Positions 32,856 to 46,281 of a stretch of 64,000 nt of DNA are shown piece by piece. Each line of letters begins with the position of its first letter. Position 1 is the first letter of the stretch. The position numbers and the translations under genes were made by a program. This DNA comes from Candidatus Latescibacterota bacterium (GTDB lineage Bacteria; Latescibacterota; UBA2968). The notes beneath the pieces were generated by a model, which saw only the letters and a program-made list of their open reading frames with translations, was not told the origin of the DNA and ran no database searches. Location of the stretch: the NCBI GenBank assembly GCA_965116885.1, contig OZ220741.1, positions 774,881 through 838,880 on the forward strand, written 5' to 3'.

Positions 32856-33704
32856 ATGGCAATGCGACTCGACAATCCATATCTCTGGGCATATACCGCA
32901 GCCATTCTGTTGCACATTCTACTCCTGCTCCTGGAAAACCCGCTGTCTGCGATCATTGTGCCGCAACCAGAAAAAATACCCGTGTCACCGCCCCTGACAT
33001 TTGAATTTGTCGATGTGCCCCAAAATCGAGACGACGCCCCGCCTGAAGAAACCCCGTTGCTCGCAGAGCGCGATAACATCTCTCGCGATCAACAAATGGA
33101 CCCCTTGCCCGAAAGCCACTTGCCATATTCCGATGGCATATCGCGGGCAAAGAACATAGCGACGCCAGCGCAGGGAAAGTCGCGCAGTGAGACACAGAGT
33201 ACAGACCGCGCACCGGAAACCACCGACAATCCCTTTAGCTTTGTAGAGGTATTGCAGAAAAATCCCGAAGAAGCGCGAAAAGAGCGAGAACGCGCGGTGC
33301 TGGGTGGGGAACTGCCTCAAGTGCGTATAGATATGGACAACAGCAAAACCCGCGCACTCGAACGCGGGGGATTGCAACTGAGCACGTATGCCTGGGACTA
33401 TGCGCCCTATATGCAATATCTCAAGCGACATATTGACCGTCATATTTATCCACCCCGCGCATTCGAGTTGGGTATGATCGACGGCATGACCCAGGTAAAA
33501 TTTAGAATCTGGCGCGATGGTCGGCTTGAAGGTCCCGAACTGATCGACTATAAGGGCCATGGCTTGTTGCGCGATACGAGCCTGAAGGCTGTTGAACTCT
33601 CGGCACCATTCAAGGCATTACCGCCAGATTTCCCGGATGAGTACCTCGAAATTGTGGGGACTTTTGAGTATTTAATTTTTGGAAAAGGACAAAGGCGACA
33701 ATAA
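32856..33704 (+). CDS. TonB-family energy transducer (N-terminal TM, Pro/Glu-rich linker, TonB C-terminal domain)
   Basis: 282 aa; C-term YPPRAFELGMIDGMTQVKFRIWRDGRLEGPELID... Confidence 0.65.
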   Translation: MAMRLDNPYLWAYTAAILLHILLLLLENPLSAIIVPQPEKIPVSPPLTFEFVDVPQNRDDAPPEETPLLAERDNISRDQQMDPLPESHLPYSDGISRAKNIATPAQGKSRSETQSTDRAPETTDNPFSFVEVLQKNPEEARKERERAVLGGELPQVRIDMDNSKTRALERGGLQLSTYAWDYAPYMQYLKRHIDRHIYPPRAFELGMIDGMTQVKFRIWRDGRLEGPELIDYKGHGLLRDTSLKAVELSAPFKALPPDFPDEYLEIVGTFEYLIFGKGQRRQ

Positions 33705-33705
33705 T

Positions 33706-34329
33706 ATGGGCTGGGCACTATTTGAACAGGGTGGTCTCATGATGTATCCTCTGACTTTGTGCTCAGTACTGGCTTTGGGCATTGCAATTGAGCGCGGATT
33801 TGCACTGCGCCGTCGCGCCATCATCCGGCCCGAGATTGTCAGTGTAATCGACAATATTCAAGGATCCGAAGACATTGGATTGGCTTTGAACGTCTGCAGA
33901 CAACACAAAGGTCCTTTCTCTGCAGTGATGCGCGCGGGATTAGACAACCGACATTTGTCCTTAGAAGAGATCCGAGAAAGTATTCTGGATCAGGGCCGTC
34001 AAGAGATGGGGGTATTGCAGAAGGGACTGGTAGTTCTGGAAACCGTAGCGGGAGTTTCGCCGCTTTTGGGACTTTTGGGCACTGTTTTGGGCATGATTAA
34101 AGTTTTTCAACAGGTTTCAGAAGTGGGCGTAGGGCAGGCCAATCTCCTGGCAGGGGGTATTTCGGAAGCAATTCTAACGACTGCTGCCGGACTTTTTATT
34201 GCAATTCCATCACTTGTATTTTACAATCTATACAGCAGTCGGGCAGAAAGCCTGATTTTGGAAATTGAGAAATACGCCAACACCCTGCTAAAAAAACTCC
34301 GGGGATTTCAAGGATCCGAAGGTGGATAG
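33706..34329 (+). CDS. exbB: MotA/TolQ/ExbB proton channel protein
   Basis: 3 TM helices, ...GVSPLLGLLGTVLGMIKVFQ... signature; ATG overlaps TonB stop. Confidence 0.8.
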   Translation: MGWALFEQGGLMMYPLTLCSVLALGIAIERGFALRRRAIIRPEIVSVIDNIQGSEDIGLALNVCRQHKGPFSAVMRAGLDNRHLSLEEIRESILDQGRQEMGVLQKGLVVLETVAGVSPLLGLLGTVLGMIKVFQQVSEVGVGQANLLAGGISEAILTTAAGLFIAIPSLVFYNLYSSRAESLILEIEKYANTLLKKLRGFQGSEGG

Positions 34330-34331
34330 CG

Positions 34332-34739
34332 ATGCGATTGCAAATGCCCGGCAAACGCCGCCCGGCCATCAATGTGACCTCTTTGATCGACGTCCTGTTT
34401 TTATTGCTTACATTTTTTCTCGTAACCACGCAATTTGTCGATCAATCCGCGCTCAAAGTCGAACTGCCCGCCATGGCACACGCGGAAAAAACGCAGCACG
34501 CGAGGCGTTATATTCTCAACATATCGGCAGATGGTCAAATGGCATTGGATGGTCAGATCGTCGATCAAACGACATTGCGGGAATTATTAAAACAACACGC
34601 AGCGGCCATAGATGAAAGTGGGGGCCTGATTTTGCGGGCAGACCGCCAATTGCCTTATGGCGATGTGATGTCGATTCTGGACCTCGTCAGAGGTGTGGGA
34701 ATCAGACGGATTACCAATGCCACAGCGGAACCCGAATAG
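34332..34739 (+). CDS. exbD: ExbD/TolR biopolymer transport protein
   Basis: 135 aa; INVTSLIDVLFLLLTFFLVTTQF single TM; stop TAG lies inside the GACGAATA repeat. Confidence 0.8.
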   Translation: MRLQMPGKRRPAINVTSLIDVLFLLLTFFLVTTQFVDQSALKVELPAMAHAEKTQHARRYILNISADGQMALDGQIVDQTTLRELLKQHAAAIDESGGLILRADRQLPYGDVMSILDLVRGVGIRRITNATAEPE

Positions 34740-34850
34740 ACGAATAGACGGTGCGGGGTACAACTGGTCGTTTCCCAGACCAGTTCATAGACGAATAGAC
34801 GAACCCTGCCCTACCAGCCAACCGCTATCGTTGATTCGTTGATTCGTTGC
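34733..34850. repeat. Composite repeat element: (GACGAATA)n octamers flanking hairpin GGTACAACTGGTC-N9-GACCAGTTCATAG, then GAACCCTGCCCTACCAGCCAAC and inverted GATTCGTT copies
   Basis: About 85% identical to element at 53474-53650. Confidence 0.8.
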
Positions 34851-34861: not shown

Positions 34862-35471
34862 AATGCGCGTTTCCAAATCGTCCAATTTTTCACATATTGA
34901 AGATATCCAAATCGTTGCCCGGGTCTTAGAAGGCAACACAGAGGCTTTCTCTGTGCTGGTACAGCGACACCATGAACGCGTGTACAATACAGTTTACAGC
35001 TTCATTGGCGATATCGACGAAGCCGACGATTTGGCGCAAGAAGCATTTCTCAAAGCATTTCGCGCTCTGAAACGATTTCGAGGACAATCGCTATTTTCAA
35101 CATGGGTACACCGCATCGCTGTCAATTGCTGCTTAGACCATCTCAAGTCCAGACATCGGCGCAGCTTTGTTTCTCTGGATGAACATCGAGAAAATTGGGA
35201 CGCACCGCGCATCTGGGTGGGCCAGCCCCCAAATGCAGATGTGCGCGTTGAACGGCGGGAACTTCAAGAAATTCTCGAACGCGCCCTGAATGATCTGTCG
35301 GAAGAATATCGCGTGACCTTTGTTTTGCGAGAAATTGAAGGCCTGGCCTATGAAGAAATTGCCGAAGTGCTCAAATGCTCGATAGGAACCGTGAAATCTC
35401 GCCTGTTTCGCGGACGGACAAAACTCCGCGAAATTTTGCAAGTACAATACGACAACTGGATTGAGGCGTAA
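34862..35471 (+). CDS. ECF (sigma-70 family, group 4) RNA polymerase sigma factor
   Basis: Region 2 (DDLAQEAFLKAFRAL) and region 4 HTH (YEEIAEVLKCSIGTVKSRLFRGR); RBS AGGTAGG. Confidence 0.85.
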
Positions 35472-35473: not shown

Positions 35474-35947
35474 ATGGACGCAGACAACACCGTTGACATC
35501 AACTGCGAATTGTTGTCGGCTTATCTCGACGATGCGCTTACAGAAGCAGAACGGACGAGAGTTGAGAAGCTATTGCGCGTGTCCGATAGTCTCAGGCGTG
35601 AACTGGCCGAGATGGTGCGAGTGCGACAACTTTTTGCGGCCTGGTCTCCACCTGCACCCGATCGTTTTTTTGTACGGCGTGTAGATATAAAAATCCGGGA
35701 AGAAATGGCGCAAATGAAGAACAGGTGGGGGTTTCAAAAATTCGCCACTGCCGCAATATTGCTGATTTCTATTGGCTCTCTGGCATTTTTAACCCAACGC
35801 CTGGACAGAACTGTTGAACCCGTCACGCTGGATGCTTTTTTGCAGAGTTCGCTCGACCGAGAGGTTCGAGAAGTTGTGAGTTTGACCGAAGATGATTTTT
35901 CCAAAGACCGCGTGCTCGACCTCGTCTTATCAGACAACGCGCGTTAG
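35474..35947 (+). CDS. Putative anti-sigma factor (N-terminal anti-sigma helix, single TM)
   Basis: 157 aa immediately after sigma gene; CELLSAYLDDALTEAER motif; central hydrophobic helix. Confidence 0.6.
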   Translation: MDADNTVDINCELLSAYLDDALTEAERTRVEKLLRVSDSLRRELAEMVRVRQLFAAWSPPAPDRFFVRRVDIKIREEMAQMKNRWGFQKFATAAILLISIGSLAFLTQRLDRTVEPVTLDAFLQSSLDREVREVVSLTEDDFSKDRVLDLVLSDNAR

Positions 35948-35959: not shown

Positions 35960-36346
35960 ATGTTTATTTCGCGTTTCCGCTTTATATGCCTGATCGTTTT
36001 GTGTCTCTTACTTGGCGCGGTAATAGGGACTGTTTACGAAAGTCTCGCGTCTGGTGATTCTGGAAAGAGGCGAGTGCGCCTGTCTGAAATGGTGGCAAAG
36101 CTCGACCTGTCAGATGGTCAGAAAGCGCAACTGGACACAATCCTCGAACAAGGGCGCAAATGCATGGTCGATATCAACACGGCCTATCGCTCAGAGTTTG
36201 GAAAAGTGAGAAACATAACCCGCGCTCAAATACGGGAAATCTTGACGCCTGATCAGCGCAAAGAATTTGATGAAATGATGGCCGAACAAGAGGCTCTGCG
36301 GCATCATCAGCGCAAAAACAGGACCCCCGGCAATCAGGCCGAGTGA
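35960..36346 (+). CDS. Periplasmic Spy/CpxP-like (LTxxQ) stress protein
   Basis: 128 aa, signal/TM then LSDGQKAQLDTIL and LTPDQRKEFDEMM repeats. Confidence 0.6.
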   Translation: MFISRFRFICLIVLCLLLGAVIGTVYESLASGDSGKRRVRLSEMVAKLDLSDGQKAQLDTILEQGRKCMVDINTAYRSEFGKVRNITRAQIREILTPDQRKEFDEMMAEQEALRHHQRKNRTPGNQAE

Positions 36347-36416
36347 TAAAAAGAATTTTATGAAAAAATAAGTGAGTAATCGTTTACTTTCTTCAAAGAT
36401 TTGAGAGGACGGAAGA

Positions 36417-38072
36417 ATGATAAAAAAAATAGCTACTTGCCGATGGTTCATGCTGCTTTTTCTCGCGCTCTTTGCCTGTGGCGAAGAAGAAGCACAACAG
36501 GCAGAGGGACAAGGCGGACGTGCTGGACGCGGCGGACGTGCTGGACGCGGTGGTGGCGCTGCTGCGCCCGTCAAGGTCGAGACTGTACAGCGAGGAGACA
36601 TTTCTGCATATATTCTCAAAAATACGACACTCGAAGCCGAAAGATGGGTTGACGTTCGAGCGCGCAGAGCTGGGCAGGTCATCGCATTACTAAAAGAAGA
36701 AGGCGACCCCGTACGTGCGGGTACCATCCTGGCACGACTCGACGCCGACGCTGCTCAAATCAGCGTCTCGCAGCGAGAAATTTCGTATCGCGAAGCCAAA
36801 CAGCGGTATGAACGCGAAGATGCCTTATTTCAGCGCAATCTGGGTAGCAAACAGTCTTATGAAAATGCCAAGACCCAATTCGAATCGTCCAAAGCACAAC
36901 TCGAACAGGCCAAACTCGATTTGAGTTACACGGCAATTAGAGCACCCATTGAAGGCATTATGACGCTGAGAAATATTGAGGTCGGCAACATGGTCACCAA
37001 CAATCAGGTGGTCGCCTCTGTAGCCAAATTCGATCCCCTGCTTGCACGCATCCAGGTAACCGAAAAGGACTTTGGCAAAATCACCGTAGGGCAGACCGCG
37101 CGCATTACGGTTGAAGCCGCACCTGAAAGAGAATTTACGGGCACAGTCAAAATGATCAGCCCGGTGGTAGATCCCGAAAGCGGCACGGTTAAAGTAACCG
37201 TTGAGATACCTCGAACAGATGCAAGTCTGCTGCGCCCGGGAATGTTTGCCTCGGTTTATATTATCACGGAAACGCGAAGAAACACCCTGGTTATTCCCAA
37301 AAAAGCCCTCGTACTCGAAGGAGAAGGCAACCAGGTATTCACCTTTGAAACCGATCCCGAAAGCGGGCGCGGTCAGGCACAACGCAGGCGCATTGAAATC
37401 GGCTTTACAGACAGTGACCGTTTAGAGATTCTCACAGGTCTTTCCCAAGGAGAGCAAGTCATTACCGTAGGACAGGAAGGATTGCGGCCCGGTTCTTCCG
37501 TACGCCTCGTAGGCGAGGCAGCACCTCCCGCATTTGCCGGACGCGGTGGACAGGGACGCGCTGGACGTGGACAGATGGGACAAAGTGGACAGGGACGCGC
37601 TGGACGCGGACAGATGGGACAAGGTGGGCAGGGTAGGCAGGGGCGTGGACAGATGGGACAGGGCGAAGGACGCGCTGGACGCGGACAGATGGGACAAGGC
37701 GGGCAGGGTAGGCAGGGGCGCGGACAGATGGGGCAAGGCGGACAACGAGGTGGTGATGGACAGGGACGCGCTGGACGTGGGCAGATGGGGCAAGGTGGAC
37801 AACGAGGTGGTGATGGACAGGGACGCGCTGGACGCGGGCAGATGGGGCAAGGCGGACAACGAGGTGGCGGTTTTGCCGGTGGACAAGGCGGCGGTGATCC
37901 CACAGACCGCATAAAACGCATGATTGAGCGCTTCCCCGAAGTCAAAGCCGAATACGAAAAGCGCGTGAAAGACGACCCCGAACTCGCAACAAATATGGAA
38001 AAACTCCGCGCTTTTATAGCTGAGATGCAAGAAAAAGGATTGATACCAGCACGAGGCAGACGAGGTAATTAA
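36417..38072 (+). CDS. RND efflux membrane fusion protein (HlyD/AcrA family) lipoprotein with N-terminal GRAGRGG and about 110-aa C-terminal Gly/Gln/Arg/Met repeat extension
   Basis: Lipobox LALFAC; biotinyl-lipoyl/beta-barrel MFP core; repeats GRAGRGQMGQGGQ. Confidence 0.8.
   Translation: MIKKIATCRWFMLLFLALFACGEEEAQQAEGQGGRAGRGGRAGRGGGAAAPVKVETVQRGDISAYILKNTTLEAERWVDVRARRAGQVIALLKEEGDPVRAGTILARLDADAAQISVSQREISYREAKQRYEREDALFQRNLGSKQSYENAKTQFESSKAQLEQAKLDLSYTAIRAPIEGIMTLRNIEVGNMVTNNQVVASVAKFDPLLARIQVTEKDFGKITVGQTARITVEAAPEREFTGTVKMISPVVDPESGTVKVTVEIPRTDASLLRPGMFASVYIITETRRNTLVIPKKALVLEGEGNQVFTFETDPESGRGQAQRRRIEIGFTDSDRLEILTGLSQGEQVITVGQEGLRPGSSVRLVGEAAPPAFAGRGGQGRAGRGQMGQSGQGRAGRGQMGQGGQGRQGRGQMGQGEGRAGRGQMGQGGQGRQGRGQMGQGGQRGGDGQGRAGRGQMGQGGQRGGDGQGRAGRGQMGQGGQRGGGFAGGQGGGDPTDRIKRMIERFPEVKAEYEKRVKDDPELATNMEKLRAFIAEMQEKGLIPARGRRGN
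37541..37870. repeat. Imperfect tandem DNA repeats (about 39-66 bp units) encoding GQGRAGRGQMGQGGQ(RGGD) in the MFP gene
   Basis: GGACAGGGACGCGCTGGACG(T/C)GG(A/G)CAGATGGG(A/G)CAAGG(T/C)GG repeated 7 or more times. Confidence 0.85.
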
Positions 38073-38076
38073 ACCT

Positions 38077-41000
38077 ATGAAACTCATTGAATTTTCGACC
38101 CGGCGACGGGTAACAGTAACTATGTTTGTGGCTGCGGCAGTACTATTCGGCATGGTAGCTTTTCAACGCCTATCGATTAACCTGCTCCCCGACATCACCT
38201 ATCCCACCCTGACGGTACGCACAGAATACGAAGGTACAGCACCCTCAGAGATGGAACGCTTAATCACCGAACCGATTGAAGGGTCTGTGGGTGTGGTAAA
38301 CGGAGTTATCCGGGTAACCTCGGCCTCGCGCCCTGGCATATCGGATGTGGTTGTGGAATTCGCCTGGGGCACGGACATGGATTTTGCTTCACTCGATATT
38401 CGAGAAAAGCTCGATCAAGTGCGCCTGCCACAGGATGTGAGAAAACCCGTACTGCTGAGATTTGACCCTTCGCTCGACCCAATCATGCGTATCGGCCTCT
38501 ACGGCGAAGAAAGTTTGATTTCGCTGCGCCTCCTGGCCGAAGAAGAAATTAAGCCCGAACTGGAAAGCCTTGAAGGCGTCGCATCTGTGCGCGTCAATGG
38601 CGGGCTGGAAGAAGAAATACAAGTTGAAATCGACCAACCCAAACTGGCTGCATTGCGCATTCCACTCGCTCAGGTCGTCAATCGCTTAGCCCAGGAAAAT
38701 GTGAACTTAACGGGCGGAGAACTCAAAGACGGCGAAGCGGAATACCTGGTTCGCACATTCAACGAATTTAAAACAATAGAAGAAATTCAGGATATCGTGG
38801 TAGGCCAGCGGCAGGGCACAGTTATCACATTAGCCGATATAGGACTGGTGACCCGAGGACATCGCGAACGCACGGTAATTACGCGCATTGATCAGCAAGA
38901 AAGTGTCGAACTGGCCATATACAAAGAGGGCGACGCCAACACTGTAACAGTTGCACAAGCCGTTAAAGAAGCCATCGCGCAATTCCGCCGCACATCCGGC
39001 GATTTGCTCGGTAATTCGCGTATGGAGGTCGTCTCCGATCAATCGACATTCATTCGAGACTCAGTATCCGAGGTCCTCAACACCGCTATTTTGGGCGGCT
39101 TTTTGGCCATCATCGTTCTCTACCTATTTTTGCAAAGCCCCAAAAGCACGGGCATCATCAGCGTATCCATTCCCATCTCAGTTGTTGCCACATTTTTCCT
39201 CATGTACGCATCGGATGTGAGTCTCAACATCATGTCGTTGGGTGGACTCGCCCTGGGAATAGGCATGCTGGTTGACAACTCAATTGTCGTACTCGAAAGC
39301 GTACAGCGTTACCAGGAAAGCGGCATGAGTCCGCGTGAAGCGACCAATAAAGGGGGGTCTGAAGTGGGGCAAGCCGTGGTGGCTTCTACAATGACGACAA
39401 TATGCGTCTTTGTCCCCATTGTTTTTGTAGAAGGCATTGCCGGACAGCTCTTCCGAGATCAGGCACTCACCGTGACCTATTCACTTGTCGCTTCCCTTCT
39501 TGTCGCACTCACAGTCATACCCATGCTGGCTTCGTTGGAATTTTCATGGATCGGCGAATTTGCCGCTGTAGAGCAACGGAAAAAGGAAAGTGGACACAAG
39601 GGGGGAGTAGAAGGTCCCGCCCACATAATGGGAATGCTCGGGGCGGTTGCGGGATGGCTCGGACGCGGTATTCTGGCCTGTCTGGCACCCTTATTCTGGC
39701 TTTTCGACAGGGTGATTGGGCGCGCTTATCTCATCTATCCGCACATTATCAGGTGGGCACTCAGGCATCGCCTGTATGTAATTGGGTTGGCAATAGCCCT
39801 CCTGGCCGGCACTGCGACACTTGGCAATAGACTCGGCAGTGAACTGATCCCTGAAATGAGCCAGGGAGAGTTCTCAATTTCAGTTGAAATGCCACTGGGT
39901 ACGCCCCTTGCCGCGACCACGCAATCCATTCAAGCCATTGAGAGAATTGTGCGCAGCCAACCCGAAGTACGTCTGGTGTACAGCATTGTCGGTACGCAAT
40001 CGGCATCTGGAGGAAGCGGCGGAGAAGAAAGGGAAAATGTAGGCGAAGTCAATGTCGTACTCCACGAGGGTATTATTCGAGATCGCGAAATTGCCGTAAT
40101 GGATCGCTTGCGCCAAATGATCCTGGAAATTCCCGCCGTGGATACAAAATTTACTCGTCCATCGCTATTTTCTTCCCGCACGCCCATCGAAGTGGAAGTC
40201 GCCGGTTATAATTTGCAGTCTCTACAGATGATCGCCGGGGAAATGATGGCGCGCATGCAAACCATTCCGGGACTGACAGATGTTAAAACCACGAGCGAGG
40301 GCGGTACACCCGAAGTGCAAATTCGGTTTGACCGCAAGCGTGTGGCTCAAATGGGCACGACGATAAATGCCATTGGCGAGATTATCCGCAATCAGGTTCA
40401 AGGGGAGGTTGCCACACAATTTACCCGAGGAGATCGGCGAGTCGATATTCGCGTCCGAGCCGAGGAGGAACATCGAAGCACAGTAGATGATCTGAGGCGA
40501 TTGATCATCAGCCCCAACAATGCCCCATCGCCAGTTCCTTTGAGTGTGGTCGCCGATTTACAGGTGGAAATGGGACCTGCTGAAATTCGCAGAATTGATC
40601 AGGAGCGCGTGGCATTGATTTCAGCCAACCTGGTGGGGCGAAGTCTGAGTGCTGTCGTCGCAGACCTCGAACGCGAAATCGATCGGATGGAGTTGCCCGC
40701 CGATTTTGCTATTAAAGTGGGTGGACAAAATGAAGAGCAACAGCGGTCGTTTGAAAGTATGCAATTGGCGATTGGACTGGCGATCTTTCTCGTCTATCTG
40801 GTCATGGCATCGCAGTTTGAATCGCTCGTTCACCCCTTCGTGATCATGTTTGCCATCCCTTTTGCGCTGGTAGGTGTTTTTGCCCTGCTCCTCCTGACCG
40901 GACAAACCATCAGTGTGGTCGTGCTCATCGGTTTGATTATGCTCGCTGGCATTGTCGTCAACAATGCCATTGTGCTCATCGATTATATCAACACCCTTCG

Positions 41001-41352
41001 AAGAGATCAAGGCATGCCCAAAATGGAGGCCATAGCAGAAGGGGGCAAAGTGCGCCTGCGTCCCATTTTAATGACCACCTCGACAACCGTGCTCGGTTTG
41101 TTGCCTATGGCGCTGGGCGTTTTCAATTTTCAGCCCCTTGTCAAAAGCATCGAAGGCGCGCTGGATGGCATATTGTCCGGACAGGTATTCGTCGTGGTCA
41201 TGGCTGTAGTGGGTATGATATTCCCCGTGGGACAGGGCGCAGAGATACGCGCGCCTATGGCCATTACTGTTATCGGCGGCCTGGTCGTATCAACACTGGT
41301 AACCCTGGTACTGATCCCAACGCTGTATTCGCTAACCGACCGCAAGGAATAG
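38077..41352 (+). CDS. RND family efflux transporter permease (AcrB/HAE1-like)
   Basis: 1091 aa, 12-TM with two large periplasmic loops; 4-nt spacing from MFP gene. Confidence 0.9.
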   Translation: MKLIEFSTRRRVTVTMFVAAAVLFGMVAFQRLSINLLPDITYPTLTVRTEYEGTAPSEMERLITEPIEGSVGVVNGVIRVTSASRPGISDVVVEFAWGTDMDFASLDIREKLDQVRLPQDVRKPVLLRFDPSLDPIMRIGLYGEESLISLRLLAEEEIKPELESLEGVASVRVNGGLEEEIQVEIDQPKLAALRIPLAQVVNRLAQENVNLTGGELKDGEAEYLVRTFNEFKTIEEIQDIVVGQRQGTVITLADIGLVTRGHRERTVITRIDQQESVELAIYKEGDANTVTVAQAVKEAIAQFRRTSGDLLGNSRMEVVSDQSTFIRDSVSEVLNTAILGGFLAIIVLYLFLQSPKSTGIISVSIPISVVATFFLMYASDVSLNIMSLGGLALGIGMLVDNSIVVLESVQRYQESGMSPREATNKGGSEVGQAVVASTMTTICVFVPIVFVEGIAGQLFRDQALTVTYSLVASLLVALTVIPMLASLEFSWIGEFAAVEQRKKESGHKGGVEGPAHIMGMLGAVAGWLGRGILACLAPLFWLFDRVIGRAYLIYPHIIRWALRHRLYVIGLAIALLAGTATLGNRLGSELIPEMSQGEFSISVEMPLGTPLAATTQSIQAIERIVRSQPEVRLVYSIVGTQSASGGSGGEERENVGEVNVVLHEGIIRDREIAVMDRLRQMILEIPAVDTKFTRPSLFSSRTPIEVEVAGYNLQSLQMIAGEMMARMQTIPGLTDVKTTSEGGTPEVQIRFDRKRVAQMGTTINAIGEIIRNQVQGEVATQFTRGDRRVDIRVRAEEEHRSTVDDLRRLIISPNNAPSPVPLSVVADLQVEMGPAEIRRIDQERVALISANLVGRSLSAVVADLEREIDRMELPADFAIKVGGQNEEQQRSFESMQLAIGLAIFLVYLVMASQFESLVHPFVIMFAIPFALVGVFALLLLTGQTISVVVLIGLIMLAGIVVNNAIVLIDYINTLRRDQGMPKMEAIAEGGKVRLRPILMTTSTTVLGLLPMALGVFNFQPLVKSIEGALDGILSGQVFVVVMAVVGMIFPVGQGAEIRAPMAITVIGGLVVSTLVTLVLIPTLYSLTDRKE

Positions 41353-41353
41353 C

Positions 41354-42175
41354 ATGGAGCAGAGCCGAAATGAAGCGTTTGTCGAATCGCTTCAGAACTA
41401 TTCGCTTTCAGAACTCGAAGATATTTATGCACATCTGGACCGAGACCTGTTTCCAGAGCGATTCGATCAAGTCAGGGACGAAATTGAAGCGCGCTTAAAG
41501 GACTTTGATTCAAAAGCTACAGGCATAAGTACACTAACTGGATCACCCGGATTTTTGAGACGCATCGCATCGAGCGCGATTGATTTCTCCATGCAAGTGC
41601 TCGTTCCCTTTTTGATTTTTTTTCTTCTCAAAAGCGTTCTTTTTCCAAGTGCCCCAACCGCAAGTGGCGGGGGTGGACGCGGCGGACGAGGTGGCGGGGG
41701 ACGCGGCGGACGAGGTGGGGGCGGTGGCGGCAATCAATCCGATGACCTCTGGTCAGACATCACGGGTTTTGTGGGCAGTGCAAAGGACATCGCTGTTGGA
41801 TTGGTCGAAGGGGATCCCGCAGCACAGAGCAGGGCGATGCTTATCTGGAACGATTTTGGTATCATCCTGGTCATTCTACTCGTTTTCCGGGTCTTCATGA
41901 CCTTATCGGGGTGGGCGCGTTCTGGATTTACCCCTGGAATGCGCGAATTGGGCATTCGGGTCGAGCGCGTTGGAGGCGGTGTTCCAACCTGGTCACAAGC
42001 GGTGGGCAGATTTGTTCTACAGCCTCTAATTTTTATCGCGACACTGGGGCTCAGTGGTCTGTGGATGCTATGGGATCGCGACAGTCGGGCACTTCACGAT
42101 AAAATTCTCGGCACAAGGCTCGTTCGCGTGGTGCGCACCTGGGAAAAAACTGGATCCGAGAGAAGATTTGAATAG
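41354..42175 (+). CDS. RDD family membrane protein with internal GGGRGGRGGGGRGGRGGGGGG tract
   Basis: C-term LWDRDSRALHDKILGTRLVR (R..D..D); start 2 nt after RND stop. Confidence 0.6.
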   Translation: MEQSRNEAFVESLQNYSLSELEDIYAHLDRDLFPERFDQVRDEIEARLKDFDSKATGISTLTGSPGFLRRIASSAIDFSMQVLVPFLIFFLLKSVLFPSAPTASGGGGRGGRGGGGRGGRGGGGGGNQSDDLWSDITGFVGSAKDIAVGLVEGDPAAQSRAMLIWNDFGIILVILLVFRVFMTLSGWARSGFTPGMRELGIRVERVGGGVPTWSQAVGRFVLQPLIFIATLGLSGLWMLWDRDSRALHDKILGTRLVRVVRTWEKTGSERRFE

Positions 42176-42255: not shown

Positions 42256-42693
42256 ATGTATAGACGGATGTATAAAGTGTGTTGTGTCGTGCTGGCAACC
42301 GCATTTTTTTGGGGGTGTTTGGCCCCTGTTGCCGAAGCGCAGTCCCTTTTTACTGCACGGCGCACATTTGGTATCTTATTTCTCGGAGGTAGTGCGTTTA
42401 TGGCCAAGCGCGCCATTGATTATAAGCGCGATGCAAACGACATCTATGAAGCCTACAAGGCGGCGACAGATGCACGGGAAGCCGAGCGGCTTTTTAACCG
42501 CACAAGTGATCGAGATACCAAGAGCCAGATGAGTATTGGATTTTCCGCAATTTTGTTGATCAGTGGTTTGCGTTTGCTCATGCACAGCGGCGTGGATGAT
42601 AAAATGCCCAAAATTGATCGACGAATCAAAATTGATCTCAACAGTGATATTCGCAAAAAGTCTGTTGGGATTGTGTTAAAGAAAAAATTTTAA
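42256..42693 (+). CDS. Small hypothetical lipoprotein/secreted protein
   Basis: Strong RBS AGGAGGAG; signal VLATAFFWGCLAPVAEAQS. Confidence 0.55.
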   Translation: MYRRMYKVCCVVLATAFFWGCLAPVAEAQSLFTARRTFGILFLGGSAFMAKRAIDYKRDANDIYEAYKAATDAREAERLFNRTSDRDTKSQMSIGFSAILLISGLRLLMHSGVDDKMPKIDRRIKIDLNSDIRKKSVGIVLKKKF

Positions 42694-42702: not shown

Positions 42703-45700
42703 ATGGGCCATGAGGAGATTATTATGAATCACTGGTGGACGCGCCGACTACAAGTCGGCCTTTTGGGGATTGCGATAATTTTAATTGCTATGTGGGGATG
42801 CGGACGCGAGCGCGTAAATCCAATTGACGCACAATATGAGGGTGAGGGAAGCGTAACTCTGAATGCGCCGGGCAATATTCGCGCCCAGGGCGGTATTGGA
42901 CGGATCACTTTGAACTGGAATCCGGTAAACAGCACCAGCCTTGCGGGATACGGCATATCGCGGTCAACATCGGCTACGGGAGACTACGTGCTGTTACGCG
43001 GCGAATCATCTGTCCCCGGCGCGACGACAGCACGGACGACATTTGTGGATTCAACAATAGATGTTAGTGTATCGAAAATATACTTTTACAAACTCAGCAG
43101 CGTAGATGTAGATGGACAAGCGAGCGAGTTGTCTGCATTTGTAAGCGCAGAAGTCCTCGATGATACGCGCGCACCAGCTATGCCGACAAATCTCGTCGCT
43201 ATCACCGATGCCGATGGCAAACAGGTGACACTGGGCTGGTCAGCACCAGAAACGGATGAGGGCAATCAGGAATTGACCGGCTTGTCCGGGTACAGAATTT
43301 TCAGGATCAAAGATTCGCAGGGCAAACTCCAGATACAGGGATCACAAACAGCTCTGGTTCAACTCGCAACAGAACTGGGCATTGACCTCGATAATCTGGG
43401 AGCAATATCCGACGACTTGAAGGATATTTTCGTCGAACTTGGGACAGTGCCAGCCGGCCAGACTTATTTCCTCGATACCGATGGACTCGAAGCTGGTGTG
43501 CTTCACGTTTATGTGGTCATCGCTGTTGATCCAGATGGCAACACCGGGCCTCCAGCACTTGCTTTAGTGACCATAAGCGCACCGGGCGCGAACGTACCAG
43601 TGCCTGCTGGCTTGCGCGCGACGAAAAATGAACAGGCGCGCATTGTCATCTCCTGGAATCCCGTGAACGATCCCAATTTGCTGGGCTATCTGGTCTTGCG
43701 GTCACAATCGACACAAGGTCCCTTCACATCCGTAACAAGTGATACGCTCTTTACCACGGGACAGACGACCTATGTCGATTCGCTCGTCACCACCGATCAA
43801 GTGTACTACTACAAAGTTCAAACCGTTGTGCAAGATCCTCAGCTTGGGCTATTGCGCAGTGATACTTCCACTTTCATTGACGGACAGGCACTTGCCGACC
43901 AGAGTGCTCCTGGCGCGCCCTCAGATCTCATCGTCAGCCTGGACGATGAGAATTTCCAGCGGGTGATGCTGAACTGGACTGCACCTGTAACAGACAGAAA
44001 TGGCAATGAACTGACCGGACTGGCCTCTTTTGAAATCTACCGGTCGCGCGAGAACAATACATCCTTTGCACTGATCGCCACAGTATCGAGCGATCAGGTG
44101 AGTTTTGTGGATACTTCTGTCGAATTGCTCACCACGTATTTCTATGCAATCAGAGCATTGGATCAAGCCGGCAATGCCGGACCCCGGTCTCAGCCGATAT
44201 CTGTGACCACCAGGGGATTTGCCATCCCGCGCAACGTGCGGGCAACTTCTGGTGTGCAGAAAATCACCTTGACCTGGACGGCAAACACCGAGCCTGAATT
44301 AACGGGATATGAAATCTTGCGCTTTACAGATCCCACGCACGAAACCCCCGACAAAACCTTCTCTTCTGTACTGACGACGTATGTGGATACCCCTGTCACA
44401 GCAGATCAACCCTTTGTCTATCGGGTGCGGGCGGTTGGCACCGCCAATGTAAAGAGCGAATTGTCACCCCCCGTCTCTGCACAGGCCACGGAAGCTGCTC
44501 CGGTTCTGGCAGCACCGCGCAATGTGCAGGCAAGGGGTGGGATTGGTCACATTACCATCACCTGGGCGGCAAACACAGAAGCAGAACTGATCGGATATCG
44601 CGTGATGCGCTATACAGACCCGGCACAAACCGAGGCTGAAGCGACCTTTATGACCGTGCAAACGACTTATGTCGATTCACCACTGGTATCGGAACAGACC
44701 TATGTGTATCGCGTACAGGCGCTTGGTACCAACAACGAAGAAAGCGAACGGTCACTATATGCCTCTGCAACGGTCTCAGCCGATCAGAGTCCTCCTGGCG
44801 CGCCTTCGGATCTCATCGTCAGTCTGGACGAGGCGAATTTCCAGCGCGTGACGCTCAGCTGGACGGCTCCCACGAGAGACAGCAATGGCAATGAATTGAC
44901 CGGATTGACCTCCTTTGAAATCTACCGGTCACGCGACAATAATACATCCTTTGCGCTAATCGCCACAGTATCGAGCGATCAGGTGAGTTATGAAGACACA
45001 TCTGTCGAGTTGTTGACGCGATACTTTTATGCGGTCAGAGCATTGGATCAGGCCGACAATGCCGGACCCCGGTCTCAGTCGGTATCTGTGACGACCAAAG
45101 GATTTGCTGCACCGCGCAACTTGCAGGCGACTGCTGGTGTGCAGCAAATCACCTTGACCTGGGCGGCAAATACCGAGCCGGAATTGACGGGATATGAAAT
45201 CTTGCGCTTTACAGATCCCACACAAGCAACACCTGAGCGAATCTTCTCTTCTGTGTTGACGACGTATGTGGACACCCCTGTCACAGCAGATCACCCCTAT
45301 GTGTATCGCGTGCGTGCGATTGGTCCTTCCAATGTGAAGAGCGAACTATCGGCTCCCGTTTTTGCACAGGCCACTGCGCCAGTTTTGGCAGCCCCGCGCA
45401 ATGTGCGCGCGACTGCTGGAATTGAGTACATTACCATCACCTGGTCTGCCAATACAGAAGCAGAACTGACCGGGTATCGCGTGATGCGCTATACAGACCC
45501 GGCACAAACCGAAGCCGAAGCGACCTTCACAATCGTGCATACGACTTATGTCGATTCGCCGCTGGTAGCAGGACAGACCTATGTCTATCGCGTACAGGCG
45601 GTAGGTGTAAACAATACAGAAAGCGAACTCTCGCTATTTGCCTCTGCAACGGTACTGATCGATGATAGCCCACCTGCTACTCCTGGCAATTTTGCCGCCG

Positions 45701-46281
45701 TTTTGGCGAGTACCGGCACAGCGGTAGAGTTGAGTTGGGATGCCTCCATAAGAGATGCAAATGGCGGTGCTCTGACCGGACTTGTCCGCTATGTGATTTA
45801 TCGAGACACATCGAATACTGTGCCGATTGAGCTAACGACCGTAGATGCGGCGCATCAAATGTATATAGATACCGGCCTGGTAAACCGCACGACTTACAGG
45901 TATCAGATCTCTGCCATTGACCATCGTGGTAATGAGAGTGCGCGATCACCCATCAGGACAGTGACCACATCTGAAACAGATGTCGTGGCACCATCGAACC
46001 TGCAGGTTTCTTATAATGGCGACGTCCCCGAGGTCACTTTGAACTGGAGTTCCCCCGCTGAGTTTGACAGTTTTGTGATTCAACGGGCAGTACTCGCTCC
46101 AGGTGCTTCACTTCAAGATTTAACAGATGCAAATTACACGAATTTGGACATCTCACAACAGACCACTTCTTATAGCGATACAACTATACAAAGTGGTGTC
46201 ACCTATGTTTACCGGGTCCGCACAAATCTTGCCGGACGGATCAGCAGTCCTTCCAATATTGTGATTATTGTGGTCCCATAG
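42703..46281 (+). CDS. Large cell-surface lipoprotein with multiple fibronectin type III-like domains; contains 885-bp tandem duplication
   Basis: 1192 aa; lipobox IAMWGC; repeated xPxNVxAxxGxxxITLxWxANTExELTGYxIxR FN3-like units. Confidence 0.8.
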   Translation: MGHEEIIMNHWWTRRLQVGLLGIAIILIAMWGCGRERVNPIDAQYEGEGSVTLNAPGNIRAQGGIGRITLNWNPVNSTSLAGYGISRSTSATGDYVLLRGESSVPGATTARTTFVDSTIDVSVSKIYFYKLSSVDVDGQASELSAFVSAEVLDDTRAPAMPTNLVAITDADGKQVTLGWSAPETDEGNQELTGLSGYRIFRIKDSQGKLQIQGSQTALVQLATELGIDLDNLGAISDDLKDIFVELGTVPAGQTYFLDTDGLEAGVLHVYVVIAVDPDGNTGPPALALVTISAPGANVPVPAGLRATKNEQARIVISWNPVNDPNLLGYLVLRSQSTQGPFTSVTSDTLFTTGQTTYVDSLVTTDQVYYYKVQTVVQDPQLGLLRSDTSTFIDGQALADQSAPGAPSDLIVSLDDENFQRVMLNWTAPVTDRNGNELTGLASFEIYRSRENNTSFALIATVSSDQVSFVDTSVELLTTYFYAIRALDQAGNAGPRSQPISVTTRGFAIPRNVRATSGVQKITLTWTANTEPELTGYEILRFTDPTHETPDKTFSSVLTTYVDTPVTADQPFVYRVRAVGTANVKSELSPPVSAQATEAAPVLAAPRNVQARGGIGHITITWAANTEAELIGYRVMRYTDPAQTEAEATFMTVQTTYVDSPLVSEQTYVYRVQALGTNNEESERSLYASATVSADQSPPGAPSDLIVSLDEANFQRVTLSWTAPTRDSNGNELTGLTSFEIYRSRDNNTSFALIATVSSDQVSYEDTSVELLTRYFYAVRALDQADNAGPRSQSVSVTTKGFAAPRNLQATAGVQQITLTWAANTEPELTGYEILRFTDPTQATPERIFSSVLTTYVDTPVTADHPYVYRVRAIGPSNVKSELSAPVFAQATAPVLAAPRNVRATAGIEYITITWSANTEAELTGYRVMRYTDPAQTEAEATFTIVHTTYVDSPLVAGQTYVYRVQAVGVNNTESELSLFASATVLIDDSPPATPGNFAAVLASTGTAVELSWDASIRDANGGALTGLVRYVIYRDTSNTVPIELTTVDAAHQMYIDTGLVNRTTYRYQISAIDHRGNESARSPIRTVTTSETDVVAPSNLQVSYNGDVPEVTLNWSSPAEFDSFVIQRAVLAPGASLQDLTDANYTNLDISQQTTSYSDTTIQSGVTYVYRVRTNLAGRISSPSNIVIIVVP
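43901..45670. repeat. Two tandem 885-bp (295-codon) near-identical units inside FN3 gene
   Basis: Unit A 43901-44785, unit B 44786-45670; both start APGAPSDLIVSLD(D/E)(E/A)NFQRV. Confidence 0.85.

What the first reader, a model, noticed from the sequence alone, without database searches (positions are those of the whole stretch)
36417..42175. RND efflux operon with Gly/Gln/Arg-repeat membrane fusion protein and an RGG-tract RDD protein, downstream of an ECF sigma / anti-sigma / Spy-like triad
The MFP carries an N-terminal GRAGRGGRAGRGG and a C-terminal extension of about 110 aa made of GQGRAGRGQMGQGGQ(RGGD) repeats. At the DNA level these are 7 or more imperfect tandem units at 37541-37870. 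The RDD protein that follows the pump, starting 2 nt after its stop, has GGGRGGRGGGGRGGRGGGGGG. RGG/GR-rich low-complexity tails are rare in bacterial envelope proteins. They may bind nucleic acid or polyanions such as sulfated polymers, or be phase-variable. An ECF sigma, an anti-sigma and a periplasmic LTxxQ (Spy/CpxP-like) protein lie directly upstream (34862-36346), which suggests envelope-stress control of the pump.
Basis: partly seen in the sequence, partly recalled or inferred. Interest (0 to 1): 0.55.

Follow-up and report, generated by a model that had tools for sequence, protein, structure and literature searches.

The report
Efflux adaptor with hypervariable tethered module
In an uncultured Latescibacterota bacterium, the periplasmic adaptor of an RND export pump ends in a floppy Gly/Gln/Arg repeat whose length differs between near-identical strains, and this repeat tethers a small, conserved, undescribed three-helix domain; this is a new variant of a familiar pump, not a new kind of system.

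Summary
All six genes, the Gly/Gln/Arg repeats and the RGG tract are at the stated coordinates. Dozens of independent assemblies reproduce them, so they are real.

The repeat is not the conserved feature. It is a predicted-disordered, in-frame linker of variable length: 31-157 aa among close relatives, and up to 74 aa apart between proteins with identical cores. It tethers a conserved three-helix C-terminal module of about 53 aa that has no Pfam, PDB-sequence or fold match. Only 60 representatives of the module turned up among 1.84 billion proteins. Most sit at the ends of adaptor proteins, some are duplicated, and one is on a YceI-like protein.

MFP-RND-RDD lies in a 12-gene same-strand cluster (GT2, TonB-like, ExbB, ExbD ... 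p145, Fn3 giant) kept in about 50 Latescibacterota species. The ECF sigma / anti-sigma / Spy-like triad is an optional insert, present in roughly half of them.

A conserved quasi-palindrome, not an ECF-type promoter, precedes the pump in many genomes, with and without the triad. All repeat units are multiples of 3 nt, so an on/off phase switch is not supported.

Function is inferred, not shown: a tethered docking or recruitment module, with cationic flexible tracts lying near the inner membrane. Verdict: new variant of a known kind, moderate interest.

The parts
31285..32835 (+). GT2-family glycosyltransferase, first gene of the conserved same-strand cluster (context)
   Evidence: Pfam Glyco_tranf_2_3, Glycos_transf_2 and Glyco_transf_21. 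It lies upstream of the TonB-like gene in most orthologous loci.
32856..33704 (+). TonB-like protein (N-terminal TM segment, C-terminal TonB_C domain)
   Evidence: Pfam TonB_C, 26.3 bits against a cutoff of 24.6. Position conserved.
33679..34329 (+). ExbB/TolQ-type proton channel subunit
   Evidence: Pfam MotA_ExbB, E = 1.8e-32.
34332..34739 (+). ExbD/TolR-type subunit
   Evidence: Pfam ExbD, E = 3.2e-28.
34733..34850 (.). Spacer between ExbD and the ECF sigma gene, made of 8-nt tandem repeats plus a hairpin. It is specific to this genome; most close relatives have about 27 nt here.
   Evidence: TRF rows at 34733-34849. Comparison of intergenic sequences.
34863..35471 (+). ECF-type sigma factor (optional module, part 1)
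   Evidence: Sigma70_r2, Sigma70_r4_2 and Sigma70_ECF; TIGR02937 116 bits. Present in only a subset of orthologous clusters.
35474..35947 (+). Single-pass anti-sigma factor (optional module, part 2)
   Evidence: zf-HC2 25.3 bits; NF052375 anti-sigma hit below cutoff. Only one Cys and no HxxxCxxC motif (read directly from the sequence).
35960..36346 (+). Membrane-anchored LTXXQ (Spy/CpxP-family) periplasmic protein (optional module, part 3)
   Evidence: PF07813 28.8 bits, above cutoff. A family profile hits Spy structures at E = 6e-5 and does not hit CnrX. Two LTXXQ-type motifs are conserved in relatives.
36370..36389 (+). Conserved quasi-palindrome AAGTGAGTAATCGTTTACTT, 47 nt upstream of the MFP start. 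Either an operator or a small 5'-UTR hairpin.
   Evidence: One hit in the window against 0.01 expected. It is found once per locus at the same relative position in many loci, with and without the triad. Folding energies are no better than shuffled controls.
36417..36479 (+). MFP lipoprotein signal peptide and lipobox (LFAC; Cys21)
   Evidence: Read from the sequence. C21 and G22 are at least 90% conserved in 68 homologues.
36480..36551 (+). MFP N-terminal disordered G/R tether (residues 22-45, GGRAGRGGRAGRGGG)
   Evidence: AF2 pLDDT below 50. 18-nt repeat. R/G-rich in all homologues. The region falls within the MdtA/MuxA-family profile match, residues 24-366.
36552..37526 (+). MFP core: membrane-proximal, beta-barrel, lipoyl and alpha-hairpin domains (residues 46-370)
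   Evidence: TIGR01730 residues 52-364. AF2 pLDDT about 90. Closest solved relatives are the TriA-TriB fusion 6vej, MexJ and ZneB.
37527..37892 (+). Hypervariable Gly/Gln/Arg(/Met) repeat linker (residues 371-492): 7 in-frame units, net charge about +13
   Evidence: units of 36-60 nt, all multiples of 3. AF2 pLDDT 32-40 with no secondary structure. Length 31-157 aa among close homologues; it differs in 145 of 155 pairs with at least 98.5% core identity.
37893..38051 (+). Conserved C-terminal three-helix module (residues 493-545), an undescribed domain
38052..38072 (+). Basic C-terminal tail RGRRGN, plus the stop codon
   Evidence: Tail net charge is +1 to +4 in all 31 aligned homologues.
38077..41352 (+). 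RND inner-membrane transporter
   Evidence: ACR_tran 816 bits. Closest solved relatives are MdtB (5e-105) and ZneA. TM4 reads GIGMLVDNSIVVLES and TM10 reads GIVVNNAIVLID, conserved in about 50 orthologues.
41354..42175 (+). RDD-family membrane protein, the conserved third gene of the pump operon
   Evidence: PF06271 50.4 bits. It follows the RND gene within 30 nt or less in most of about 47 loci.
41666..41731 (+). GGGGRGGRGGGGRGGRGGGGGG tract in the TM1-TM2 loop of RDD (predicted periplasmic)
   Evidence: A (G)nR tract at the same position persists in RDD homologues down to 33% identity. It is absent in some clades.
42256..42693 (+). Conserved 145-aa protein with no family match (p145), next gene of the cluster (context)
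   Evidence: No significant Pfam hit. Conserved position, and 47-99% identity across loci.
42703..46281 (+). Giant Fn3-repeat protein, last conserved gene of the cluster before the sigma-54 response regulator (context)
   Evidence: Pfam fn3, E = 1.4e-43. Conserved position.

Best explanation
SHOWN. The locus is the Latescibacterota version of an RND export pump. It has a lipoprotein adaptor (MFP), an RND transporter and a tightly linked RDD membrane protein. It sits inside a long same-strand cluster (GT2, TonB-like, ExbB, ExbD, [ECF sigma, anti-sigma, Spy-like], MFP, RND, RDD, p145, Fn3 giant) that is kept in about 50 species.

The Gly/Gln/Arg repeats are a predicted-disordered linker built from in-frame 36-60-nt units. 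The linker gains and loses units between near-identical strains. It tethers a conserved three-helix module of about 53 aa, followed by a short basic tail, to the membrane-proximal domain of the adaptor. The module, not the repeat, is what is conserved. It is kept in all intact orthologues, duplicated in several, found at the ends of adaptors in other lineages, and found once on a YceI-like periplasmic protein in a genome of the same phylum.

INFERRED. The module is a portable periplasmic docking or recruitment element. It binds a partner close to the pump, either the RND subunit or a general envelope component. The RDD protein is probably not an obligate partner, because module-bearing adaptors exist without an adjacent RDD gene. 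The linker acts as a flexible leash whose exact length matters little. The cationic Gly/Arg tracts (adaptor N-tether, C-linker, C-tail and RDD loop) lie at the outer face of the inner membrane and probably contact anionic lipid head groups. The RDD protein is an accessory subunit of the pump.

The ECF / anti-sigma / Spy-like triad is a lineage-specific regulatory insert. It may add envelope-stress input, mainly by read-through. The pump's own conserved upstream element exists without it.
For: Domain assignments.

Linker disordered and module folded.

Module conserved while the linker varies in length, composition and charge.

Strain-level variation: proteins with identical 313-aa cores differ by up to 74 aa in the linker, and 145 of 155 near-identical pairs differ. 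Units are multiples of 3 nt. Complete chromosomes also differ, with linkers of 92-150 aa.

Rarity and architecture of the module: 60 representatives, mostly at the C-terminus of proteins of about 440-660 aa after a low-complexity linker; 2-3 tandem copies in P0126, P0127, P0131, P0132, P0145 and P0153. Duplicated in L004/L021, L019, L020 and L059. YceI fusion P0124 at a separate site of the 8.08-Mb genome that also carries L003.

Module without an adjacent RDD gene: L039 and L063.

Synteny across about 50 species-level genomes. RND-RDD gaps are mostly 1-30 nt. The G/R tract persists in the RDD loop down to 33% identity.

Triad optional. The upstream quasi-palindrome is present with and without the triad.
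Against: No partner of the module has been identified, and no interaction was modelled or measured. The fold search returns only generic three-helix bundles, so it gives no functional hint.

Membrane contact by the G/R tracts is inference from composition and predicted topology only.

The co-occurrence of long cationic linkers, RDD G/R tracts and the triad is confounded by phylogeny. It could equally mean that these three features work together, in a way this explanation plays down.

Some of the length variation may come from misassembly of short reads. Only the variation among complete chromosomes is secure.

The substrate of the pump is unknown, and no outer-membrane factor gene is linked.
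Confidence: 0.5

Rival explanations
1. Substrate-capture leash. The C-terminal module binds the pump's substrate, or a carrier of it, in the periplasm and hands it to the RND subunit. This is what the CusF-like C-terminal domain of SilB does for Ag/Cu. The linker sets the capture radius.
For: There is a precedent for an adaptor with an appended C-terminal chaperone domain (SilB). Tandem duplication of the module fits an avidity or capacity role. The module also occurs on a YceI-like lipid/isoprenoid-binding protein and, weakly, on an MlaD-like protein (P0179, E = 6.7e-4).
Against: A highly charged three-helix bundle of about 53 aa shows no obvious ligand pocket. It has no similarity to CusF or any known binding domain. 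It has no conserved Cys, His or Met cluster.
Confidence: 0.15
2. Polyanion-binding tail. The cationic Gly/Arg/Gln repeat is itself the functional element and binds polyanions in the periplasm, such as sulfated oligosaccharides.
For: Linker net charge is about +13, with 14% Arg and 44% Gly. The G/R tract in RDD recurs at the same position down to 33% identity. The same window encodes a PL8 lyase and at least 9 sulfatases, which points to a lifestyle based on sulfated glycans.
Against: Orthologous adaptors in about half of the species have 27-40-aa linkers that are neutral or acidic and poor in Arg. Linker length is unconstrained between near-identical strains. There is no nucleic acid in the periplasm. 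In most of the sulfatases the catalytic domain begins at residues 2-20, which leaves little room for a signal peptide. This suggests that desulfation is cytoplasmic.
Confidence: 0.15
3. Metal-resistance system. A CnrYXH-like sigma / anti-sigma / periplasmic-sensor triad controls a heavy-metal RND pump, and the Met-containing repeats (GQMGQ) act as a soft-metal sponge.
For: The gene architecture resembles cnrYXH-cnrCBA. The LTXXQ protein gives a weak Metal_resist hit (19.7 bits, below cutoff). The second-best specific family hits are CzcB/NccB for the MFP and ZneA/CusA for the RND. There is one Met in each repeat unit.
Against: The profile of the LTXXQ protein hits Spy, not CnrX, and no conserved His or Met ligand set is visible. 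The repeats have no His or Cys and no MxxM/MxM motifs. More distant orthologues lack the Met repeats. All heavy-metal family scores are far below their cutoffs, and the best RND match is the MdtB type.
Confidence: 0.07
4. Phase-variable contingency locus. Slippage in the repeats switches the adaptor, or its module, on and off.
For: The repeat number is hypervariable. A few assemblies are frame-shifted inside the repeat and lose the module (P0055, P0063; L016), or are frame-shifted inside the RDD tract (P0223).
Against: All units are 36, 39, 57 or 60 nt, which are multiples of 3. More than 95% of homologues are in frame. The rare frameshifts are equally well explained by sequencing error in G-rich repeats.
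Confidence: 0.05
5. The repeat region is an assembly artefact.
For: Imperfect tandem repeats spanning about 330 nt are hard to assemble from short reads.
Against: The same repeat family, with the same flanks and the same downstream module, is seen in more than 60 independent assemblies, including complete chromosomes. The reading frame is maintained through the repeat.
Confidence: 0.01

Closest known systems
Tripartite RND efflux pumps of the MdtABC / TriABC / AcrAB type (lipoprotein adaptor plus RND transporter)
   Same: The adaptor has the four canonical domains and a lipobox. The RND gene follows 4 nt later. The closest solved relatives are MdtB/ZneA for the RND and TriAB/MexJ/ZneB for the adaptor. 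An Arg/Gly-rich N-terminal tether also falls within the MdtA/MuxA profile match.
   Different: The adaptor carries a 122-aa disordered repeat linker, a three-helix C-terminal module and a basic tail. A conserved RDD membrane protein is the third gene. No outer-membrane factor gene is linked. At the positions that are DD (TM4) and K (TM10) in AcrB (AcrB residues from my own knowledge), this RND has DN and N, and this is conserved in about 50 orthologues.
SilB (Cupriavidus metallidurans), an adaptor with a C-terminal CusF-like metallochaperone domain
   Same: It is an RND adaptor extended at its C-terminus by an extra small domain that also exists outside adaptors. Here, likewise, the module occurs on a YceI-like protein.
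   Different: SilB's extra domain is a metal-binding beta-barrel. This module is an all-helical bundle with no metal ligands, and it is separated from the core by a long hypervariable linker.
cnrYXH-cnrCBA (ECF sigma CnrH, anti-sigma CnrY, periplasmic sensor CnrX, upstream of an RND pump)
   Same: An ECF sigma, a membrane anti-sigma and a small membrane-anchored helical periplasmic protein lie directly upstream of RND pump genes on the same strand.
   Different: The gene order differs. The third protein is Spy/CpxP-like by profile, not detectably CnrX-like. No outer-membrane factor gene is present. The triad is dispensable in half of the orthologous clusters. No ECF-type promoter is recognisable before the pump.
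Small accessory partners of RND pumps (AcrZ and YajC with AcrB; from my own knowledge)
   Same: An extra inner-membrane protein encoded with, or acting with, the RND transporter.
   Different: RDD is a 273-aa protein with a cytoplasmic N-domain, several predicted TM segments and a periplasmic G/R loop. Its association with the pump is inferred only from conserved gene linkage.
In-frame variable-number tandem repeats in bacterial envelope proteins
   Same: Repeat copy number differs between otherwise identical alleles, and the reading frame is kept.
   Different: The repeat is in a periplasmic adaptor of a pump, not in a surface-exposed adhesin or antigen. That makes diversifying selection by a host or by phage less obvious.

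Membership tests
RND periplasmic adaptor (MFP; TIGR01730 / HlyD_D23) | Four-domain core (membrane-proximal, beta-barrel, lipoyl, alpha-hairpin) recognised by the family profile | tested here: met
   TIGR01730 250 bits against a cutoff of 94.9, residues 52-364. The AF2 core has pLDDT about 90, with two long helices (111-139, 145-170) flanked by beta domains.
RND periplasmic adaptor (MFP; TIGR01730 / HlyD_D23) | Encoded next to its transporter and anchored to the inner membrane | tested here: met
   The RND gene starts 4 nt after the MFP stop. Lipobox LFAC with a conserved Cys21.
RND transporter (ACR_tran, HAE-1-like) | 12-TM RND architecture recognised by the family profile | tested here: met
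   PF00873 816 bits, residues 4-1014. Best solved relative MdtB, 5e-105.
RND transporter (ACR_tran, HAE-1-like) | AcrB-type proton relay (Asp-Asp in TM4, Lys in TM10; residues from my own knowledge of AcrB) | tested here: not met
   TM4 is LVDNS (Asp-Asn) and TM10 is VVNNA (Asn instead of Lys), conserved in about 50 orthologues. All equivalog and subfamily NCBIfam scores are below cutoff. The protein is therefore a member of the superfamily but of no named subfamily.
Heavy-metal RND system (CzcCBA / CusCBA / CnrCBA) | Family-specific profile scores above cutoff for the transporter and the adaptor | tested here: not met
   TIGR00914 496 against 701; TIGR00999 133 against 319; CusB 62 against 390.
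RDD family (PF06271) | Profile match above the gathering score | tested here: met
   50.4 bits against 24.1, residues 65-252. Homologues are annotated as RDD family.
ECF sigma factor with cognate anti-sigma | Sigma regions 2 and 4 only, with a co-transcribed membrane anti-sigma factor immediately downstream | tested here: met
   Sigma70_r2, Sigma70_r4_2; TIGR02937 116 bits against 42.9. The anti-sigma gene starts 2 nt after the sigma stop and has one TM segment.
Zinc-binding anti-sigma (ZAS) | HxxxCxxC zinc motif | tested here: not met
   The N-terminal region has a single Cys (C11) and no His-Cys-Cys motif (sequence). The zf-HC2 match covers only profile positions 6-25 of 35.
Spy / CpxP / LTXXQ periplasmic proteins | Profile match and two LTXXQ-type motifs | tested here: met
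   PF07813 28.8 bits against 24.3. The family profile hits Spy structures at E = 6e-5 with two stretches. The motifs LDLSDGQK and ILTPDQRK are conserved. Difference: an N-terminal hydrophobic anchor, whereas Spy is soluble.
CnrX-type metal sensor | Homology to CnrX and a conserved metal-ligand set | tested here: not met
   No CnrX chain appears among the PDB hits of the profile. Metal_resist scores 19.7 bits, below the cutoff of 29.2. No conserved His cluster.
ECF-regulated pump operon (CnrH-type control) | Conserved ECF-type -35/-10 promoter upstream of the pump genes | tested here: not met
   No conserved AAC...CGT/GTC pair. The CGTT in the window is TTAT, TTGT or TCAT in close relatives. 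The conserved element is a quasi-palindrome that also occurs in triad-less genomes. ECF promoter consensus sequences differ between groups, so this is not decisive.
SilB-type adaptor with C-terminal chaperone domain | CusF-like beta-barrel C-terminal domain | tested here: not met
   The module is predicted to be all-helical. No CusF-like hit by sequence or by fold.
Phase-variable (on/off) contingency gene | Repeat unit length not divisible by 3, so that copy-number change shifts the frame | tested here: not met
   Units are 36, 39, 57 and 60 nt. The great majority of alleles are in frame.
RGG/GAR nucleic-acid-binding low-complexity domains | Located in a compartment that contains nucleic acid | tested here: not met
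   The composition is similar. But the tracts follow a lipoprotein signal or lie in the TM1-TM2 loop of RDD, so they are predicted to be periplasmic. The topology is predicted, not measured.

The most novel reading that the evidence does not exclude
The C-terminal three-helix module is a portable periplasmic 'address tag'. It recruits inner-membrane-anchored, lipid-handling proteins (the RND adaptor, a YceI-like protein, possibly an MlaD-like protein) to one envelope hub. On this reading, the phylum-wide GT2 / TonB-ExbBD / MFP-RND-RDD / p145 / Fn3 cluster is a dedicated envelope-building machine that exports a glycolipid or a surface polymer, with RDD as a new obligatory RND subunit, and is not a drug or metal efflux pump.
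Probability: 0.12. Interest if true: 0.7.

Novelty: new variant of a known kind. Interest (0 to 1): 0.4.

Why it matters
RND adaptors are usually described as four-domain proteins. Appended domains are known mainly from metal pumps. This locus adds four things:
- An undescribed small domain that is conserved across a whole candidate phylum and scattered elsewhere.
- A leash whose length changes between otherwise identical strains. It is a natural experiment on how much tether length matters for a periplasmic assembly.
- An RDD protein as a conserved pump neighbour, which gives a testable role to a family with almost no assigned function.
- An RND lineage with non-canonical residues at the proton-relay positions.

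None of this changes how efflux is thought to work. It does define concrete, clonable targets for structural and interaction studies in an uncultured lineage, some of whose MAG names suggest sponge or coral hosts.

Tried and rejected
1. Is the module related to the neighbouring LTXXQ/Spy-like protein? Some relatives begin the module with MTPEQ/MSPE. hhalign of A1 against A4 gave probability 0.2%. Rejected.

2. PPR proteins were the top PDB sequence hits for the module (E about 1e-8). Every individual stretch is only the 10-mer EMxEKGIxP, with i-Evalue 200-340, summed over designer repeats. Rejected as an artefact.

4. Sigma-70-type promoter and terminator scan of 32.7-42.8 kb: no more sites than in shuffled sequence.

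5. Search for an ECF-type -35/-10. GGAAC-N19-GTCT spans the ExbD stop in close relatives, but the GGAAC is inside coding sequence, and the arrangement is broken in the window by the repeat insertion. Nothing is conserved upstream of the MFP.

6. RNA-hairpin reading of the upstream quasi-palindrome. The hairpin appears in the minimum-free-energy folds, but the z-scores run from -1.7 to +0.6. Undecided.

7. The exact window MFP is not on record in the contig index.

8. The search for related loci with the module alignment alone failed, because no stretch was conserved enough. The full-length alignment A2 was used instead.

9. Word-based search with RDD found only 56 proteins, all of the same lineage. 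Whether RDD-RND linkage exists in other phyla could therefore not be tested.

10. Literature searches for RDD with RND, and for Latescibacteria with efflux, found nothing relevant.

Full report
OBSERVATION

They are an ECF sigma factor (34863-35471), a single-pass anti-sigma factor (35474-35947), an LTXXQ-family protein (35960-36346), an RND membrane fusion protein (MFP, 36417-38072), an RND transporter (38077-41352) and an RDD-family membrane protein (41354-42175).

Tandem Repeats Finder reports arrays at 37545-37867 (periods 39, 57 and 75 nt), 36513-36561 (18 nt) and 41675-41731 (24 nt). Parsing the main array gives seven units of 39, 39, 36, 39, 57, 57 and about 60 nt, each beginning RGQMGQ. 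In all six frames of the 64-kb window, only these two proteins contain G/R- or G/Q/R-rich 20-residue stretches.

ORGANISM AND CONTEXT

A scan of one genome per species found 55 related loci. About 50 are from Candidatus Latescibacterota, including many complete chromosomes of 4-8 Mb. A few records are labelled Gemmatimonadota. Latescibacterota belongs to the FCB group. The window is therefore from an uncultured Latescibacterota bacterium.

BLAST of the window's proteins against all ORFs of these loci shows one conserved same-strand order: GT2 glycosyltransferase, TonB-like, ExbB, ExbD, [ECF sigma, anti-sigma, LTXXQ], MFP, RND, RDD, a 145-aa protein with no family match (p145), a giant Fn3-repeat protein and a sigma-54 response regulator. 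This holds from 55% to 95% MFP identity. The bracketed triad is present in the window's clade and a few others. It is absent from about half of the loci, where the MFP gene follows ExbD directly. RDD follows the RND gene within 1-30 nt in most loci. No outer-membrane factor gene is linked.

WHAT THE REPEAT IS

The decisive result came from aligning homologues. Behind the repeat lies a module of about 53 residues. Its consensus is ..R(M/L)xERFPxxKxEYDxRVKxDPELATxxEKxRAFxxEMREKG..P, and it is followed by a short basic tail (RGGRGN and similar). Nearly invariant positions are R505, P507, K510, R516, P521, K529, A532, F533, E536, R538, K540 and G541. The module is as conserved as the adaptor core.

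The segment between core and module behaves quite differently. It varies from 24 to 181 residues. Its composition ranges from Gly/Gln/Arg/Met repeats in the window's clade to Pro/Ala/Ser/Glu-rich stretches elsewhere. Its net charge ranges from +13 to -6.

AlphaFold2 on a 68-sequence alignment gives a confident core (pLDDT about 90). Residues 22-45 and 371-492 have no structure and pLDDT 32-40. The module (493-545) is confident at pLDDT 92-95 and forms three helices. Modelled alone, the module gives the same three helices with pLDDT 79.

THE MODULE IS UNDESCRIBED

- Pfam gives nothing below E = 0.01.
- NCBIfam matches to the MFP all end by residue about 371.
- The PDB sequence search gives only a spurious summed match to designer PPR repeats, through the 10-mer EMxEKGIxP.
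- It is not detectably related to the neighbouring LTXXQ protein (hhalign probability 0.2%).

An exhaustive profile search of 1.84 billion representative proteins found only 60 hits at E of 0.001 or better. Most are C-terminal in proteins of about 440-660 aa, and those I checked against Pfam are MFPs. The module always follows a low-complexity linker. Several proteins carry two or three tandem copies. In three loci from other lineages, the module-bearing MFP again precedes an RND gene in the two contigs long enough to show it.

Within Latescibacterota the module is duplicated in L004/L021, L019, L020 and L059. One hit, P0124, is a YceI-like periplasmic protein carrying a GR linker, the module and a basic tail. 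It is encoded about 290 kb away from the pump cluster in the 8.08-Mb genome that carries L003. A weaker hit, P0179, is an MlaD-domain protein. The module is therefore portable among periplasmic, inner-membrane-associated proteins.

HYPERVARIABILITY

Among 64 close single-module homologues the linker is 31-157 aa long (median 119), with 0-8 QMG motifs. Of 155 pairs with at least 98.5% identity over the 313-aa core, 145 differ in linker length. Pairs with 100% identical cores differ by up to 74 residues, often in steps of 13.

Complete chromosomes also differ, with linkers of 92-150 aa, so short-read misassembly cannot be the whole explanation. All units are multiples of 3 nt. A handful of assemblies are frame-shifted inside the repeat (P0055 and P0063; L016), or inside the RDD tract (P0223). 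These may be sequencing errors. The data fit in-frame slippage or recombination under weak constraint on length. They do not fit an on/off switch.

THE G/R TRACTS

The N-terminal tract lies between the lipidated Cys21 and the first strand. It is R/G-rich in all homologues and falls inside the MdtA/MuxA profile match, so it is ordinary for this kind of adaptor.

The RDD tract lies in the loop after the first TM segment. RDD has no signal peptide and has an R-R pair before TM1, so this loop is predicted to be periplasmic. A (G)nR tract recurs at the same place in RDD homologues down to 33% identity and is followed by a conserved (D/N)(I/L)W(S/G)D motif. It is missing in some clades (L001, L003).

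Long cationic MFP linkers, RDD G/R tracts and the triad tend to occur in the same clades. This association is confounded by phylogeny and I could not correct for that. All tracts are predicted to lie at the periplasmic face of the inner membrane. That rules out nucleic acid as a normal ligand and makes anionic lipid head groups the simplest target. This last point is inference.

REGULATION

In most close relatives the ECF sigma gene starts about 27 nt after ExbD. In others it overlaps ExbD. It is therefore probably co-transcribed with the upstream genes. The window has a genome-specific insertion of about 120 nt there, made of 8-nt tandem repeats.

The 70-nt spacer before the MFP is strongly conserved, but it holds no conserved ECF-type -35/-10. 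The window's CGTT is not conserved. What is conserved is a quasi-palindrome, AAGTRA-N4/N8-TTACTT (window 36370-36389; one hit against 0.01 expected). It occurs once per locus, always just upstream of the MFP. It is present in loci with the triad and in several without it (L001, L029, L038, L039, L042, L048, L054). It is absent where the ExbD-MFP spacer is shorter than about 110 nt. It is often preceded by a T-rich TTTTTTTTATATTG-like box. It could be an operator or a small 5'-UTR hairpin; folding energies do not decide between these.

The pump therefore has a cis-element of its own that does not depend on the triad. ECF control remains possible by read-through or through an unrecognised promoter, and it has a precedent in cnrYXH-cnrCBA. 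It is not demonstrated. The third protein of the triad is Spy-like by profile (E = 6e-5) and not CnrX-like, and it has an N-terminal anchor.

THE PUMP

The transporter is closest to MdtB and ZneA, and the adaptor to TriAB, MexJ and ZneB. No NCBIfam subfamily cutoff is reached. TM4 reads LVDNS and TM10 reads VVNNA in about 50 orthologues. From my own knowledge of AcrB (Asp407-Asp408, Lys940), this is a non-canonical proton relay. The substrate is unknown.

MECHANISM

Shown: the anatomy, the disorder and fold predictions, the conservation pattern, the hypervariability, the synteny, and the optional nature of the triad.

Inferred:
- The module is a tethered docking or recruitment element.
- The linker is a leash of loosely constrained length.
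- The G/R tracts contact the membrane surface.
- RDD is an accessory subunit. It is probably not the module's obligate partner, because L039 and L063 have the module without an adjacent RDD gene.

Rivals: substrate capture as in SilB; polyanion binding, noting the PL8 lyase and the at least 9 sulfatases in the same window; a metal sponge; and phase variation. Each is weighed in its own section of this report.

VERDICT

This is a new variant of a known kind: an RND pump whose adaptor carries a hypervariable disordered tether and an undescribed portable three-helix module, with a conserved RDD partner, inside a phylum-wide envelope gene cluster. Interest is moderate (0.4).

Noticed in passing
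window 36370-36389 (and the equivalent position in L001, L003-L018, L021-L024, L026, L028, L029, L038, L039, L042, L048, L054): A conserved quasi-palindrome, AAGTRA-N4/N8-TTACTT, lies about 30-60 nt upstream of the MFP start where the start codon is clear. It occurs once per locus, in genomes with and without the ECF triad, and is often preceded by a T-rich TTTTTTTTATATTG-like box. It could be an operator or a 5'-UTR hairpin.
   Followed up: partly
window 1721-24879, minus strand: A large locus for using sulfated glycans: a PL8 polysaccharide lyase (1721-4816), an MFS transporter (4828-6093) and at least 9 sulfatases (9044-24879). In most of the sulfatases the catalytic domain starts at residues 2-20, leaving little room for a signal peptide.
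   Followed up: partly
window 31285-47854 and loci L001-L059: A 12-gene same-strand cluster (GT2, TonB-like, ExbB, ExbD, [triad], MFP, RND, RDD, p145, Fn3 giant, sigma-54 response regulator) is conserved across about 50 Latescibacterota species. It may be one envelope-related functional unit and not just a pump with neighbours.
   Followed up: partly
window 34733-34850; L005, L008, L019, L020 and L059, same intergenic positions: The spacers between ExbD and the sigma gene, and between the LTXXQ gene and the MFP, pick up different short tandem-repeat insertions in different genomes. Examples are the 8-nt units CGAATAGA and TCGTTGAT here, and GGCAAGAGG-like and AAAGGCGATAGCC-like units elsewhere. 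Most relatives have only about 27 nt between ExbD and the sigma gene.
   Followed up: partly
window 39260-39310 (RND residues about 398-412) and 40960-41010 (about 962-978): The RND transporter has Asp-Asn (LVDNS) in TM4 and Asn (VVNNA) in TM10, where AcrB-type pumps have Asp-Asp and Lys (AcrB residues from my own knowledge). This is conserved in about 50 orthologues and suggests a different proton-coupling arrangement.
   Followed up: partly
window 41120-41352 (RND C-terminal region): The ACR_tran profile match ends at residue 1014 of 1091, with 38 profile positions left unmatched. The C-terminal part, around the last TM segments, therefore seems to hold about 40 extra, partly hydrophobic residues.
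   Followed up: no
window 42256-42693 and orthologues in L001, L003, L004: p145 is a conserved 145-aa protein with no family match. It has a signal-like N-terminus and two hydrophobic stretches, and in the four sequences I inspected (window, L001, L003, L004) it ends in ...K(K/R)x F.
   Followed up: no
L060 6001-6813 (P0124): A YceI-like periplasmic protein fused to a GR-rich linker, the same C-terminal module and a basic tail. It is encoded away from the pump cluster in the 8.08-Mb Latescibacterota genome.
   Followed up: partly
L004/L021, L019, L020, L059; P0126, P0127, P0131, P0132, P0145, P0153: The C-terminal module occurs in two or three tandem copies, each preceded by its own low-complexity linker.
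   Followed up: partly
P0055, P0063, L016 10001-11565; P0223: A few assemblies are frame-shifted inside the MFP repeat or the RDD G/R tract, giving the alternative-frame peptide DRDALDADRWDKV... and losing the downstream part. These could be sequencing errors or real pseudogenes.
   Followed up: no
window 37373-38153 minus strand and 37534-37914 plus strand: Long ORFs in other frames and on the opposite strand across the repeat (Pro/Cys-rich, Ser/Leu-rich, and DRWDK-rich) are by-products of the repeat composition, not genes.
   Followed up: no
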